Source of the DNA: a virus
Lineage: Duplodnaviria; Heunggongvirae; Uroviricota; Caudoviricetes
DNA: 63,762 nucleotides
Strand: one strand, 5' to 3'
IMG/VR virus record: IMGVR_UViG_2571042862_000001
In this document: one piece after another, positions 29,463 to 33,398 of the stretch
How the letters are laid out: every line of letters begins with the position of its first letter
Position numbering within the stretch: position 1 is the first letter of the stretch
Program-made: the position numbers and the translations under genes
The notes under the pieces: model-generated
Database searches by the model: none
What the model saw: the letters and a program-made list of their open reading frames with translations, nothing else
What the model was told of the DNA's origin: nothing

Positions 29463-30360
29463 GCACTGGAAAAACATTACTATTTATAAACTTTCTCGTG
29501 AGGCGGATCTGACCGACTTAGAAGATAAAAAGAAAATGATCCTTTTCACGCCATGCGGTAGTCAGGATATGGCCAAGTTCGGTTTTGTATCTCCATTTGG
29601 TGATAATTCCGAAGTTATCGCTATGCATGGAAATGGTTTTATCCTTGTTGAAGCAAAGCGCGAAACAAAAATTCTTCCCCCGCCGGTTATCCAGCGAGCT
29701 ATTCAAGAAAAAATTGAAAAACTTGAGCAAGAACAAGCGCGTAAACTGAAGAAAACAGAGAAGGACTCCCTGAAAGACGAAGTTCTGCATTCTCTTCTGC
29801 CACGGGCTTTTTCAAAGTTTTCTGTTATCCAGGCGATCTACGACGGTTCAACTAAACGTATCTATATCAATGCCAGCGCGCGGCAGGCAGAGGATATGCT
29901 CGCGCTTATGCGTAAATCTCTGGATTCTCTTCCTGTTGTTCCCCTAAGTGTTGAAAATCCCATTGAATTAACGCTGACCGACTGGGTACGTGATGGTAGT
30001 GCTCCACAGGGATTTCAAATGGGGGATGCGGCAGAACTTAAGGCAGTGCTTGAGGATGGCGGTATTGCCCGAGTGAAAAAGCAGGATTTGGGAAGCGATG
30101 AAATTTCCACACACCTGGAAGCTGGCAAGCTCGTTACTAAGTTGGCACTCGACTGGCAGAACCGCATTAAATTTACACTGGACCATAACTTGAGCCTTAC
30201 CAGCGTCAAATTTGCGGATGAATTGCTTGAGCAGAACTCTGATATTGATAGTGAAGATGTAGCGCAGCGACTGGACGCAGATTTCTTCCTCTTGACCAGT
30301 GAAATTTCGTGCCTGGTTGATGCTCTGGTAAATGCCCTTGGTGGAGAGGCTAAGCAGTGA
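29455..30360 (+). CDS. hrdC: HrdC, homologue of recombination-associated protein RdgC
   Basis: [62 protein letters not shown] closely parallels E. coli RdgC. Confidence 0.85.
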
Positions 30361-33300
30361 AAGAACTGTGCTATGGATCTGTTTGCAGTGGAATTGAAGC
30401 CGCGAGTATTGCCTGGGAACCGTTGGGTATGCGTCCGGCGTGGTTTGCTGAAATAGAGCCTTTTCCATCTGCCGTTCTTGCGCACCGCTGGCCCCATGTC
30501 GCCAACCTTGGCGACATGACAAAACTCGCCCAAAAAGTCCAGGCTGGAGAAATTGAAGCCCCTGATGTGCTGGTGGGAGGGACACCATGTTTTACCGCGG
30601 GGCATATGGTTCTTTGTAAAAATGGTTATAAACCAATAGAAGATGTTTGCCCTGGCGATTACGTAGTCAGTCATCTCGGGCGGTTACAACAAGTAAAAAG
30701 AGTTGGTTCAAAAATAGCTAATACGGGGTTACTTAATGCCGTTGGGCAGCCTTTAGGTATAAGAACAACCAATGACCATCCCTTCCTGGCGGTTCGGTGG
30801 AAAGCCCAAAACACCCGGAAAAATGGCACATATTTTAAGAGAGAGTTGTTGTCTGAACCGGAATGGCGAGCAGCATGTGATATGCCGGGATATCAATGGT
30901 GTGCTCTAACTAATTTCAATATTGCATCTCCAGATATTTGTTCTCGGTTCTTGTCTGAAGAACAGGCTATGTATCTTGCGGGCGCTTATGTTGGCGATGG
31001 ATATATTAGGAGATGGAAAGGTAAATCTAAGAAGGCGGTTGTTTTTGGCATAAATTGCCAGAAGTTGAGAAAGTTTCATTGCCGCATACCAGAAAACATA
31101 TTTTCCGTGGCAAGCGAAATCCGAGGGAGCATCAAAGTAACCTTGAATGATACGTGTTATGCCAATTGGCTTAATGAACATTTTGGCGAGTTAAGCCATG
31201 CTAAGCGTATCCCTGCATGGGTGATGTCGCATCCATTGCGTCATGTGTTTTTACAAGGCTATCTTGATACTGATGGGACACCAAGTGGTAAAGCGGGATT
31301 TAGAATTAATAGTGTTAGTCCTGCGCTTGCTTGGGGCGTTGCGGAGTTGTCACAGACTTGTGGTTATGTTTCTTCGGTCAGCTTTATTGAAGTTGAGCCC
31401 AAAAAAGTGATTGAGGATCGCGTGGTAAATCAACGGAATTATTATCAGGTAACAATCTGCCCGCAGAAATTGTCACGTAAATCAAGATTGGCTCATGGAA
31501 TGCTTTTACGAACAGTCAAAGAGTTTAAATCGGTAGGCCTAGATACTGTATACAACATAGAAGTCGAAGGTGATCATTCCTATATCCTCAATGGTGCGGT
31601 GGTCCATAACTGTCAGGCATTCAGTATCGCGGGATTACGTGGTGGGCTTGATGATGAGCGTGGCGCGCTAACTTTAAAGTATGTGGAGCTTGCAAATGCA
31701 ATTGACGACAAACGGGCTGAGTCATTTCTCAAACCAGCCGTTATCGTCTGGGAAAATGTCCCAGGAGTCTTGTCATCGGCAGATAACGCCTTCGGATGTT
31801 TCCTTGCTGGATTGGCTGGAGAAGATGTGCCATTTGAACCAGGTGATCGACCTGAATCAGGAAAAAGCAACGCGTTCTGGCGGTGGGATGGCAAAACCGG
31901 TTGCCATGTTCCAAAGTGGCCGCAGTGTGGTTGTATTTATGGACCGCAGCGAAAGGTGGCCTGGAGAATCCTTGATGCCCAATACTTCGGAGTGGCACAA
32001 CGACGCCGACGCGTGTTTGTTGTCGCAAGTGCTCGAACAGACCTCGATCCCGCAACGGTACTTTTTGAGTTCGAAGGCGTGCGCCGGAATATTGCGCCGA
32101 GCAGAGGCGAGGGGAAGGAAACTACCAGATATACTTCAGACATCGCTATCAGATCTTGCGATGATACAAACATAGTTGCCATGGCACATGGGCAAGGAGG
32201 GGCTGAGATAAAAACCGATAATTCGGCACCAACTTTGACATGTAACCATGAAGCACCAATTGTATTGCTCGGCGACGGTAGAATGCGCCGTCTTACCCCT
32301 GTCGAATGTGAAAGGCTGCAAGGTTTTCCTGATGGACATACATTGATCCCTACGGAAAAGCGTAAAAAAGTTTCTTCAGATGAACTGGCATACCTTCGCA
32401 AAAACTCTCCTGATTTGAACGAAGAAGAGGCTGCAATGCTTGCAGCTGACGGACCGCGTTACAAAGCGATCGGCAATAGTATGGCGATACCAGTAATGCG
32501 CTGGATTGGCGAGCGGATAACCAAGGCTGCATGTCGGCAGAATGAAGGGCGTGAAACAAAAGAGCGAAAAGTTAAACCAGCGGCAGAATTCGAACGGTCC
32601 ATATTCAAATGGGCTGGTGGAAAATTTGGTGTTCTGGAACAAATCTTTCGCTATTTGCCAGAAGGGAAGCGCCTGATTGAACCTTTCGTCGGTGGTGGAG
32701 CTGTCTTCATGAATGCCGGATACCAGGAAAATCTGCTAAATGATGTGAATGCTGACCTGATTAACTTTTACAAGACTCTGCAACGCGAGGCGCATTCACT
32801 TATCACTCTGGCACATCGGTTCTTCCAGGACTACAACACCCAGGAGGGATTCCTGGCAGTACGGAATGCGTTTAACAAACAAGTCTATGATGATTTACAT
32901 CGCGCAGCGGCGTTTTTGTTCCTGAACCGACATTGTTTTAACGGATTGACGCGTTACAACCAGGCCGGTGAGTTCAATGTCGGTTATGGGAAGTATAAAA
33001 CTCCGTATTTCCCATTACAGGAGATGGAAGCCTTCCTCGGTGCGGAAGGGCGGTCTGAGTTTGTATGCGGTGATTTTGCAGCGGTGATTGAAGCTGCCGG
33101 AGAAGGAGATGTCATCTTTTGCGATCCGCCGTATGAACCGCTTCCAAATACAGAGGGATTCACGAACTATTCCGGTCATGACTTTAAGTTTGAAGAGCAA
33201 AAACGCCTGGTGTCTCTGTTGACGGATGCTCATCGTCGAGGTGCAAAGGTTCTCATTACTAACAGTGGCGCGCCAAACATCAGAGAGCTTTATCATGACA

Positions 33301-33398
33301 GTGGCTTCAGAGTGGAACATCTTTTTGCCAGACGTTCTGTGTCTTGTAAGGGGGACACTCGAGGTGTAGCTCATGACGTTTTGGGTATATTGCTCTAA
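30357..33398 (+). CDS. dmt: bifunctional DNA methyltransferase Dmt (C5-cytosine MTase fused to Dam-like N6-adenine MTase), interrupted by an intein
   Basis: C5-MTase motifs GGTP|C..(intein)..CQAFS, ENV (VIVWENVPG); Dam-like C-terminal half [28 protein letters not shown]. Confidence 0.85.
30588..31610 (+). mobile_element. intein with LAGLIDADG homing endonuclease domain inside dmt
   Basis: Starts with Cys ([13 protein letters not shown]..), block B TNDHPF, two LAGLIDADG motifs ([22 protein letters not shown]), ends ..VVHN followed by extein Cys; excision restores GGTPCQAFS. Confidence 0.8.

What the first reader, a model, noticed from the sequence alone, without database searches (positions are those of the whole stretch)
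30357..33398. Fused Dcm-like and Dam-like methyltransferase whose stop codon lies inside a palindromic C1 operator
One polypeptide carries C5-cytosine MTase motifs (PCQ, ENV) and a complete Dam-type N6-adenine MTase (DPPY). The last codons (..GILL-stop) overlap a perfect ATTGCTCTAATAAATTT operator embedded in the 16-bp palindrome CTAATAAATTTATTAG, so repressor binding for the downstream tRNA-tci-ban operon coincides with dmt termination. Dam methylation matters here because the pac site and oriR are GATC-rich.
Basis: partly seen in the sequence, partly recalled or inferred. Interest (0 to 1): 0.45.

Follow-up and report, generated by a model that had tools for sequence, protein, structure and literature searches.

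The report
Intein hidden in phage P1-type methyltransferase

Summary
The window is a P1-like (Punavirus) phage-plasmid. ORF 30357-33398 is dmt. The operator that overlaps its stop codon is P1's bivalent Op72ab (Obanab). It is base-for-base identical to reference P1 and already annotated there, so the finding as written is correct but already known.

The string 'PCQ' does not occur in the 1013-aa ORF. A 341-aa insertion (30588-31610) lies between Pro77 and the catalytic Cys419-Gln420. It has every sequence hallmark of a class-1 intein: Cys1, TxxH, two LAGLIDADG motifs with their Asp residues, and His-Asn followed by Cys+1. Its AlphaFold model (pLDDT 93) matches PI-SceI-type homing inteins.

The intein is absent from reference P1 and P7. 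It is present in 133 of 471 dmt-bearing PLSDB plasmids, in 152 of 5426 complete E. coli genomes and in a sequenced laboratory P1vir stock. It is 3-9 times less diverse at synonymous sites than the flanking exteins, and it occurs in three target-recognition-domain backgrounds. That pattern fits recent horizontal spread.

Relatives at 29-57% identity sit at the same site in other C5 methyltransferases. I found no paper that describes this intein. Splicing and homing are inferred, not shown.

The parts
29090..29106 (+). C1 operator Op68 (Odmt), which controls the uhr-hrdC-dmt operon
   Evidence: One mismatch to the operator consensus. Same offset from the dmt start (-1267) as the annotated Odmt in P1 AF234172.
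29455..30360 (+). hrdC (RdgC-family gene); its TGA stop overlaps the dmt GTG start by 4 nt
   Evidence: ORF list and sequence. The arrangement matches the P1 annotation.
30357..33398 (+). dmt precursor ORF, 1013 aa: C5-MTase N-part, intein, C5-MTase C-part, Dam domain
30357..30587 (+). N-extein (aa 1-77): C5-MTase motif I through Pro77 of motif IV
   Evidence: Alignment with the intein-less P1 and P7 Dmt. The spliced product aligns to M.HhaI residues 59-125.
30588..31610 (+). Intein, 341 aa (Cys78 to Asn418), with a LAGLIDADG homing-endonuclease domain
   Evidence: Pfam Hint_2, LAGLIDADG_3 and Intein_splicing. TIGR01443 intein_Cterm scores above its cut-off. AF2 pLDDT 93.1. Foldseek top hits are PI-SceI, TliVMA and PI-PfuI, E about 1e-16. 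Precisely absent from P1 and P7. GC 42.8% against 54.5% and 48.9% in the exteins.
30768..30779 (+). Intein block B, TNDH (TxxH; intein T61 and H64)
   Evidence: T61 and H64 are invariant in the 12-sequence family alignment. Coordinates.
30975..31001 (+). LAGLIDADG motif 1 (LAGAYVGDG; catalytic Asp = ORF D214, intein D137)
   Evidence: G132 and G138 are invariant; D137 is at least 90% conserved.
31251..31277 (+). LAGLIDADG motif 2 (LQGYLDTDG; catalytic Asp = ORF D306, intein D229)
   Evidence: G224 and G230 are invariant; D229 is at least 90% conserved.
31605..31613 (+). C-terminal splice junction His417-Asn418 | Cys419. Cys419 is both the +1 splicing nucleophile and the catalytic Cys of motif IV.
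   Evidence: After in-silico splicing, this Cys aligns with Cys81 of M.HhaI in GFPCQAFS.
31611..32573 (+). C-extein part 1: the rest of the C5-MTase (CQAFS, ENV at 31752-31760, QRRRR, P7-type target-recognition domain, GNS motif X)
32368..32386 (+). Sequence identical to the late promoter LPdam2 predicted in P7, downstream of the intein
   Evidence: Exact 19/19 match to the P7 annotated feature. The promoter is a prediction only.
32610..33317 (+). Dam-type N6-adenine MTase domain (PF02086; DPPY at 33123-33134)
   Evidence: Pfam 192 bits. TIGR00571 dam 250 bits.
33389..33405 (+). C1 operator Op72a (Obana), perfect consensus, containing the dmt TAA stop at 33396-33398
   Evidence: Identical to P1.
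33400..33416 (-). C1 operator Op72b (Obanb). It overlaps Op72a by 6 bp and forms the palindrome at 33395-33410.
33576..33605 (+). Terminator-like hairpin plus T-run in the leader that P1 annotates as 'dicF-like'
   Evidence: The region is essentially identical to P1 and P7. No Rfam family reaches its threshold.
34072..34318 (+). tRNA cassette of the ban operon: Asn(GTT), Tyr(GTA), Thr(TGT)
   Evidence: ARAGORN and Rfam.
26744..26837 (.). GATC cluster at the plasmid origin (oriR region)
59703..59887 (.). GATC cluster at the pac site inside pacA
   Evidence: 98.3% identical to the P1 region that holds the annotated pac cleavage site.

Best explanation
This is the dmt gene of a P1-family phage-plasmid, carrying a mobile intein.

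Transcription. dmt is transcribed with uhr and hrdC from Pdmt, which the C1 repressor blocks at Op68. It is therefore made only after derepression, in lytic growth.

Protein. The 1013-aa precursor holds a class-1 intein (aa 78-418) placed exactly between Pro77 and the catalytic Cys of motif IV (PCQ) of the C5-cytosine methyltransferase half. I infer that the intein splices itself out by the standard pathway: an N-S acyl shift at Cys78, trans-thioesterification to Cys419, cyclisation of Asn418, and an S-N shift. This would yield a 672-aa Dmt with an intact GGTPCQAFS active site and a C-terminal Dam domain that methylates GATC. P1 needs GATC methylation at pac and oriR. Until splicing occurs the m5C site cannot exist. 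The Dam domain lies wholly in the C-extein and should not depend on splicing.

Mobility. The excised intein carries a LAGLIDADG endonuclease. I infer that it cuts intein-less dmt alleles at the GGTACGCCT|TGTCAGGC junction when two P1-like genomes replicate in one cell. The intein would then be copied in by recombinational repair (homing).

Operator. The dmt stop codon lies inside Op72a of the bivalent C1 operator Op72ab, which overlaps the P1ban/P2ban promoters of the tRNA-tci-ban operon, exactly as in P1. This is gene packing, not a special termination mechanism.
For: Identity of the locus:
- 96-98% DNA identity to P1, P7 and RCS47 dmt, with the same neighbours.
- The operator and leader are identical to P1, and the operator is conserved in 78 of 85 loci.

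Intein:
- A precise in-frame 1023-bp insertion relative to P1 and P7.
- Pfam and NCBIfam intein, Hint and LAGLIDADG hits.
- C1, T61/H64, D137/D229, H340-N341 and Cys+1 are all present and conserved across relatives.
- AF2 pLDDT 93, and Foldseek hits to PI-SceI, TliVMA and PI-PfuI at E about 1e-16.
- In-silico splicing raises the PF00145 score from 105 to 126 bits as one continuous stretch over motifs I-VI. It also aligns Cys419 with M.HhaI Cys81.

Mobility:
- Present in 133 of 471 dmt-bearing plasmids and 152 of 5426 E. coli genomes.
- Found in P1-type, P7-type and a third TRD background.
- piS is 0.012 in the intein, against 0.112, 0.034 and 0.047 in the N-extein, the C-extein and the Dam segment of the same 21 alleles.
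- Lower GC than the exteins.
- The base before the insertion is CCA in 21 of 21 intein+ alleles. It is CCT (57) or CTT (1) in the 58 intein- alleles.
- All 21 copies are intact ORFs, with piN/piS 0.32.

Viability and biology:
- A lab P1vir stock that plaques normally carries the intein.
- The Dam requirement at pac is taken from the review PMC12707154.
Against: - Splicing, endonuclease activity and homing have not been shown for this element. All three are inferred from sequence, fold and population pattern.
- Identical intein haplotypes always travel with the same N-extein haplotype. The TRD mosaicism could therefore come from ordinary recombination downstream of the intein rather than from homing.
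- In the endonuclease domain piN/piS is about 0.6, on few sites, so that domain may be decaying.
- m5C activity of Dmt is itself only putative in the P1 annotation ('perhaps at C5 cytosine').
- P1vir viability on dam+ hosts says nothing about whether the spliced enzyme forms.
Confidence: 0.85

Rival explanations
1. The finding is only what the first reader said: an ordinary P1 Dmt with its stop in Op72. The extra 341 aa is an inert domain insertion, or a dead intein that is never removed. On this reading the C5 half is permanently inactive and only the Dam half works.
For: C5 activity of Dmt is unproven (P1 annotation). Dam is the activity P1 is known to need. piN/piS in the HE domain is relaxed, about 0.6. 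One copy with a frameshift exists (NZ_CP027223.1).
Against: Every residue needed for class-1 splicing is present, and these residues are invariant or nearly so across relatives down to 24% identity. All 21 sampled copies and 153 of 153 E. coli hits are full length. The splicing domain has piN/piS of about 0.17. The C5 extein on both sides is still under purifying selection, piN/piS 0.15-0.24, which is not expected for a permanently broken enzyme.
Confidence: 0.1
2. The intein splices, but its endonuclease is no longer active. Its patchy distribution reflects one old insertion followed by ordinary homologous recombination among P1-like plasmids and occasional precise loss, not ongoing homing.
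For: Intein haplotype is tightly linked to N-extein haplotype. TRD modules are clearly shuffled independently of the intein. HE-domain constraint is weaker than splicing-domain constraint.
Against: Intein piS is 9 times lower than that of the adjacent 231-bp N-extein, which has 10 haplotypes up to 9.5% apart. This is hard to explain by co-inheritance since one old insertion. Both LAGLIDADG Asp residues and an invariant Lys206 are retained. The CCA marker is perfectly associated with the intein across diverged flanks.
Confidence: 0.25
3. The overlap of the stop codon and operator is itself regulatory. For example, C1 bound at Op72 would act as a roadblock that ends Pdmt transcripts, or ribosomes terminating at the TAA would modulate Pban.
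For: The 28-bp overlap is almost invariant in 85 loci. No terminator-like hairpin was found between the dmt stop and the operator; the first lies about 180 nt downstream.
Against: Pdmt is itself repressed by C1 at Op68. Whenever C1 occupies Op72 there is little dmt transcription to block. Conservation is explained by the operator and promoter function alone. No evidence for coupling was found in the annotation or in the papers searched.
Confidence: 0.05

Closest known systems
Phage P1 Dmt and P7 Dam (bifunctional C5/N6 DNA methyltransferase) with operator Op72ab (Obanab)
   Same: Same gene, neighbours, GTG start overlapping hrdC, Dam domain, and operator/promoter/leader sequence (96-98% DNA identity in the exteins; operator 28/28). 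The target-recognition domain is of the P7 type.
   Different: A 1023-bp intein splits motif IV. It is absent from the reference P1 and P7 sequences.
PI-SceI (yeast VMA1 intein) and archaeal VMA/Pol homing inteins (TliVMA, PI-PfuI, PI-PkoII)
   Same: Two-domain architecture: a HINT splicing domain interrupted by a LAGLIDADG endonuclease. Cys1, TxxH, His-Asn and Cys+1 are all present. These are the best structural matches, E about 1e-16 and TM 0.55-0.62.
   Different: Only 10-16% sequence identity. This intein is smaller (341 aa, against about 360-540 aa for the matched chains). The host protein is a DNA methyltransferase in an enterobacterial phage-plasmid.
Inteins in actinobacteriophage DNA methylases (Kelley 2016, PMC5050341; Gosselin 2023, PMC9957025; bioRxiv 10.1101/2025.01.02.630785, which lists both C-5 and N-6/N-4 methylases)
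   Same: A phage-borne methylase invaded by a LAGLIDADG intein at a conserved site, with patchy distribution and the intein less diverged than the extein.
   Different: Different host phages and bacteria (Actinobacteria against Enterobacteriaceae). I did not test whether the actinophage C-5 methylase inteins use the same insertion site or are homologous.
The unnamed family of C5-MTase motif-IV inteins in genomes and metagenomes (for example the Mannheimia haemolytica 'Hint domain-containing protein')
   Same: 29-57% identical inteins inserted at the identical position GG(T/S)P|C...HN|CQxxS in 27 of 36 sampled relatives. There are 192 clusters at E<1e-30. These are intein alleles in the usual sense.
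   Different: The exteins are single-domain or other C5 MTases. Only P0028 shares the Dmt-like C5+Dam fusion. None carries a curated name beyond automatic 'Hint domain' or 'DOD-type homing endonuclease' labels.

Membership tests
Class-1 intein | In-frame insertion in a conserved host protein, precisely absent from close orthologues | tested here: met
   341 aa are absent from P1 and P7 Dmt, with seamless GGTP|CQAFS flanks. 58 of 79 complete alleles lack it.
Class-1 intein | N-terminal Cys/Ser (block A) and block B TxxH | tested here: met
   Cys78. T138-N-D-H141 (intein T61 and H64), invariant in the family alignment.
Class-1 intein | C-terminal His-Asn followed by Cys/Ser/Thr at +1 (block G) | tested here: met
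   VVH417-N418 | C419. TIGR01443 scores 28.9 bits against a cut-off of 15.6.
Class-1 intein | HINT fold | tested here: met
   AF2 model with pLDDT 93.1. Foldseek probability 1.0 to PI-SceI, TliVMA and PI-PfuI, and to mini-intein structures. Pfam Hint_2 scores just above its cut-off, 28.6 against 28.4.
Class-1 intein | Protein splicing actually occurs (ligated exteins plus free intein) | not testable with these tools
   Needs protein analysis. Only indirect support exists: both exteins are under purifying selection.
LAGLIDADG homing endonuclease | Two LAGLIDADG motifs, each ending in a catalytic acidic residue, in an alpha-beta-beta-alpha-beta-beta-alpha fold | tested here: met
   LAGAYVGDG and LQGYLDTDG, with D214 and D306. 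Pfam LAGLIDADG_3 scores 32.6 bits against a cut-off of 22.5. Structural hits to I-DmoI and I-SceI.
LAGLIDADG homing endonuclease | Site-specific cleavage of the empty allele and homing | not testable with these tools
   The population pattern is consistent: low intein piS, several extein backgrounds and the CCA marker. Linkage to the N-extein haplotype leaves recombination as an alternative.
C5-cytosine DNA methyltransferase (PF00145) | Motifs I (FxGxG-like), IV (PCQ with catalytic Cys), VI (ENV), VIII (QRR) and X (GNS) | tested here: met
   All motifs are present. Motif IV is contiguous only after in-silico splicing. In the primary ORF 'PCQ' is absent.
C5-cytosine DNA methyltransferase (PF00145) | m5C methylation activity and its specificity | not testable with these tools
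   The P1 annotation itself says 'perhaps at C5 cytosine'.
Dam-family N6-adenine methyltransferase (PF02086 / TIGR00571) | SAM-binding FxGxG motif and the DPPY catalytic motif; full-length match to the family model | tested here: met
   PF02086 192 bits over profile positions 1-245 of 253. TIGR00571 250 bits against a cut-off of 115. DPPY at aa 923.
P1 C1-repressor operator (Op72ab / Obanab) | 17-bp asymmetric consensus ATTGCTCTAATAAATTT; two overlapping inverted copies at the ban promoter | tested here: met
   17/17 and 15/17 matches at 33389-33405 (+) and 33400-33416 (-). Identical to the annotated P1 operator.
P1 C1-repressor operator (Op72ab / Obanab) | C1 binding and repression of the ban operon | not testable with these tools
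   Taken from the P1 record's annotation. The sequence identity makes the same behaviour very likely.

The most novel reading that the evidence does not exclude
An active homing intein is now spreading through the P1 family of phage-plasmids in E. coli, Salmonella and Shigella, and it is already present in a laboratory P1vir stock. E. coli and Salmonella are commonly said to lack inteins. Because the +1 splice nucleophile is the methyltransferase's own catalytic cysteine, the m5C activity of Dmt would be switched on only by splicing, possibly conditionally, while the Dam activity is constitutive. The element would then provide a ready-made genetic system (P1vir crossed with reference P1) for measuring intein homing in E. 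coli.
Probability: 0.5. Interest if true: 0.6.

Novelty: new member of a known kind. Interest (0 to 1): 0.45.

Why it matters
The feature as reported (Dmt plus Op72) is textbook P1 biology and adds nothing new.

The intein matters for three reasons.

1. Reviews state that inteins appear absent from E. coli and Salmonella (Kelley 2016, PMC5050341). Yet about 28% of dmt-bearing P1-like plasmids and 2.8% of complete E. coli genomes carry this one. It goes unnoticed because annotation pipelines name the protein only 'Dam family methyltransferase'.

2. It sits in the most tractable phage-host system available, including a P1vir stock. Splicing, homing frequency and co-conversion tracts could therefore be measured directly.

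3. It changes how dmt should be read. Methylome or anti-restriction studies of P1-like elements must allow for an m5C activity that depends on protein splicing, and for target-recognition domains that are shuffled among alleles.

Tried and rejected
- I searched the literature for any description of an intein in P1, P7 or RCS47 dmt, or in phage-plasmids. None was found. The two hits that combined 'intein' with P1 terms were unrelated. Lobocka 2004 (PMC523184) is not held, so the P1 facts are taken from the GenBank annotation.
- A sequence search of PDB with the intein alone gave only weak hits: Spl DnaX mini-intein E 0.0015 and PI-PkoII E 0.05. The fold comparison was needed.
- I considered using the four-gamete pattern (intein present or absent against TRD type) as proof of homing. 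I rejected it as proof, because identical inteins always share the N-extein haplotype. Downstream recombination could produce the same pattern. The synonymous-diversity contrast is the stronger argument.
- I looked for a DicF or other Rfam RNA in the ban leader. Nothing reached threshold.
- The sigma-70 consensus scan did not find P1ban/P2ban, although the region is identical to P1. The scan is simply too strict.
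Full report
**1.

The region is a P1-family (Punavirus) phage-plasmid. ORF 30357-33398 (+, GTG, 1013 aa) matches dmt of P1, P7, RCS47 and others at 96-98% DNA identity. It has the same neighbours: uhr, hrdC, then dmt, followed by tRNAs, tciABC, tRNA-Ile(CAT) and ban.

Pfam finds a C5-cytosine methylase (PF00145) and a complete D12/Dam methylase (PF02086, 192 bits) in the one polypeptide. ENV (aa 466), DPPY (aa 923) and the GILL-stop ending are present.

The 17-mer ATTGCTCTAATAAATTT is a perfect match at 33389-33405 and contains the TAA stop (33396-33398). 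CTAATAAATTTATTAG (33395-33410) is a perfect palindrome. A second operator copy lies inverted at 33400-33416 with two mismatches. The window holds nine operator-like sites, against 0.01 expected by chance.

All of this is annotated in the reference P1 record as the bivalent operator Obanab (formerly Op72ab), overlapping promoters P1ban and P2ban and the end of dmt. The window is base-for-base identical to P1 across the operator and differs by only a single extra T across the downstream leader. The 28-bp operator is unchanged in 78 of 85 related loci.

GATC is not enriched overall (254 sites against 249 expected). It clusters in just two places, the plasmid origin (26744-26834) and the pac site inside pacA (59703-59884). 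A recent review states that P1 needs GATC methylation at pac and that dmt is essential in Dam- hosts (PMC12707154).

So the finding is real, but it is already known.

**2. The error that leads to the real result**

The string 'PCQ' does not occur in the ORF. The ORF is 259 aa longer than P1 Dmt and 341 aa longer than P7 Dam. Alignment shows why. The C5-methylase motif IV reads GGTP | CFTAGH ... VVHN | CQAFS. A 341-aa block (aa 78-418; nt 30588-31610) is precisely absent from P1 and P7, where the sequence is simply GGTPCQAFS.

A separate difference, 82 aa longer or shorter, lies in the target-recognition domain. This window has the P7-type TRD.

**3. The insertion is an intein with a homing endonuclease**

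- Pfam reports Hint_2, LAGLIDADG_3 and a weak Intein_splicing match (18.3 bits, below its 35.8-bit cut-off) over aa 77-418.
- NCBIfam's intein C-terminal model scores above its cut-off.
- The block has Cys1, block-B T61-x-x-H64, two LAGLIDADG motifs (LAGAYVGDG and LQGYLDTDG) with their terminal Asp residues, and His-Asn followed by Cys+1. These positions are invariant or at least 90% conserved in relatives down to 24% identity.
- An AlphaFold2 model built on that alignment has mean pLDDT 93.1.
- Its best PDB matches are PI-SceI, the TliVMA and PhoVMA inteins, PI-PfuI and PI-PkoII (E 1e-16 to 1e-9). I-DmoI and I-SceI match the central domain.
- Removing the block in silico restores a continuous PF00145 match over motifs I-VI (126 bits against 105). 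It also aligns Cys419 with the catalytic Cys81 of M.HhaI within GFPCQAFS.

The +1 splice nucleophile is therefore the methyltransferase's own catalytic cysteine. The m5C active site cannot exist before splicing. The Dam domain lies entirely in the C-extein.

**4. Distribution and evidence for mobility**

Prevalence:
- The intein DNA occurs in 133 PLSDB plasmids (118 Escherichia, 14 Salmonella, 1 Shigella). The Dam-coding 3' part of dmt occurs in 471.
- It occurs in 152 of 5426 complete E. coli genomes, always full length and at least 95% identical.
- In every listed record the protein is annotated only as 'Dam family ... methyltransferase' or 'DNA cytosine methyltransferase'.
- Among phage records it is in RCS47, vB_EcoM-Ro157c2YLVW and OP279344. 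OP279344 is the assembled genome of a laboratory P1vir stock (PMC10250240).

Survey of 85 dmt loci (80 from IMG/VR):
- The intein is present or absent within the P1-type TRD (8+ / 34-), the P7-type TRD (12+ / 16-) and a third type (807 aa becoming 1148 aa).
- Across the 21 complete intein+ alleles, synonymous diversity is 0.012 in the intein. It is 0.112 in the adjacent N-extein, 0.034 in the first 480 nt of the C-extein and 0.047 in the Dam segment.
- Intein GC is 42.8%, against 54.5% and 48.9% in the exteins.
- The codon before the insertion is CCA in 21 of 21 intein+ alleles. It is CCT (57) or CTT (1) in the 58 intein- alleles.
- All copies are intact ORFs, with piN/piS 0.32.

Together these point to a recently spread element that is still constrained.

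A caveat applies. Identical intein haplotypes are always linked to the same N-extein haplotype. The TRD mosaicism alone could therefore come from ordinary recombination. Constraint also looks weaker in the endonuclease domain, where piN/piS is about 0.6 on few sites.

**5. Wider family**

An exhaustive profile-free search found 192 50%-identity clusters at E<1e-30. Of 36 sampled relatives, 27 carry the intein at the same GG(T/S)P|C...HN|CQxxS site of a C5 methyltransferase. More distant relatives sit in terminases and thymidylate synthase. One relative (P0028, 57% identical intein) is again a C5+Dam fusion. The P1 intein is thus an allele of a widespread, uncurated family of C5-MTase motif-IV inteins.

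**6. How it most likely works**

Shown or directly readable:
- The operon structure.
- The positions of Op68 and Op72.
- The anatomy of the intein.

Inferred:
- dmt is made only after C1 derepression.
- The precursor splices by the class-1 pathway to give a 672-aa Dmt.
- The free intein cuts intein-less dmt in co-replicating P1-like genomes, and the intein is copied in by repair.
- Dam activity does not need splicing.

A sequence identical to P7's predicted late promoter LPdam2 lies downstream of the intein at 32368-32386. If it is real, it could give a Dam-only product. That is speculation.

The overlap of the stop codon and the operator is best read as compact packing. Pdmt is itself C1-repressed, so a roadblock role is unlikely.

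**7. Comparison with what is known, and novelty**

Dmt, Op72 and the GATC-rich pac and oriR are known. Homing inteins are a known kind, and inteins in actinophage DNA methylases have been described (PMC5050341, PMC9957025, bioRxiv 10.1101/2025.01.02.630785).

I found no paper that mentions an intein in P1-type dmt or in phage-plasmids. The library lacks most subscription journals, so absence is not proven. Kelley et al. state that inteins appear absent from E. coli and Salmonella, and this element is a counter-example on their plasmid prophages.

I rate it a new member of a known kind. It is of moderate interest, mainly because it sits in a highly tractable system and affects how dmt and P1 methylation should be interpreted.

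Noticed in passing
window 34152-34238: An extra tRNA-Tyr(GTA) lies between tRNA-Asn and tRNA-Thr. Reference P1 and P7 lack it. 14 of 60 related loci have it. Others carry tRNA-Ser(TGA) or have tRNA-Arg(TCT) in place of Asn, so the ban-operon tRNA cassette is variable.
   Followed up: partly
window about 32080-32300 (aa 575-650 of dmt); L001, L003: The target-recognition domain of the C5-methylase half is modular. There is a P1 type (82 aa longer), a P7 type (this window), and further types that give intein-less proteins of 807 and 862 aa. These probably have different m5C specificities.
   Followed up: partly
L002 (OP279344.1) 2501-5542: A sequenced laboratory P1vir stock carries the intein and a P7-type TRD. 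Its dmt therefore differs markedly from reference P1 c1-100 mod749::IS5.
   Followed up: partly
L001 (AF234172) dmt codon 74: The reference P1 strain has Trp in VWGTPCQ, two residues before the motif-IV Pro. All other sampled alleles have Gly there (VGGTPCQ). This may be a strain-specific lesion of the C5 half.
   Followed up: no
window 32368-32386: An exact copy of P7's predicted late promoter LPdam2 lies inside dmt, downstream of the intein. In-frame Met694, Met709 and Met714 precede the Dam domain, so a splicing-independent Dam-only product is conceivable.
   Followed up: partly
window 33456-33605: The leader of the ban operon (annotated 'dicF-like' in P1) ends in a strong terminator-like hairpin plus a T7 run at 33576-33605. 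It is almost invariant between P1, P7 and this window. No Rfam family reaches threshold, so it could be an unclassified sRNA or attenuator.
   Followed up: partly
window 34897-35012: A sub-threshold Rfam hit to sRNA STnc100 (43 bits against a gathering score of 47, E 3e-7) lies just upstream of tciA (35050-35484).
   Followed up: no
NZ_CP027223.1 35242-36263 (hit H83): This intein copy is one base short (1022 nt). dmt there is annotated as two CDSs, an example of intein-associated pseudogenisation.
   Followed up: no
P0011 (Mannheimia haemolytica, 439 aa): A 48%-identical intein sits at the same PC|Q site of a C5 methylase whose C-extein is cut to 21 residues. It was seen on 578 contigs, including chromosomes, and looks like a stranded intein in a dead methylase gene.
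   Followed up: partly
window 26631-26981: The replication-origin region is 98.6% identical to RCS47 but only about 85% identical (over 62% of its length) to P7 oriR. It barely matches the P1vir record. The replicon type therefore differs from classical P1.
   Followed up: no
NZ_CP007394.1 2166446-2167468 (hit H69): A 100%-identical intein copy lies in a record typed as an E. coli chromosome. It is one of 5 chromosomal places among 153, suggesting integrated or mis-assembled P1-like elements.
   Followed up: no
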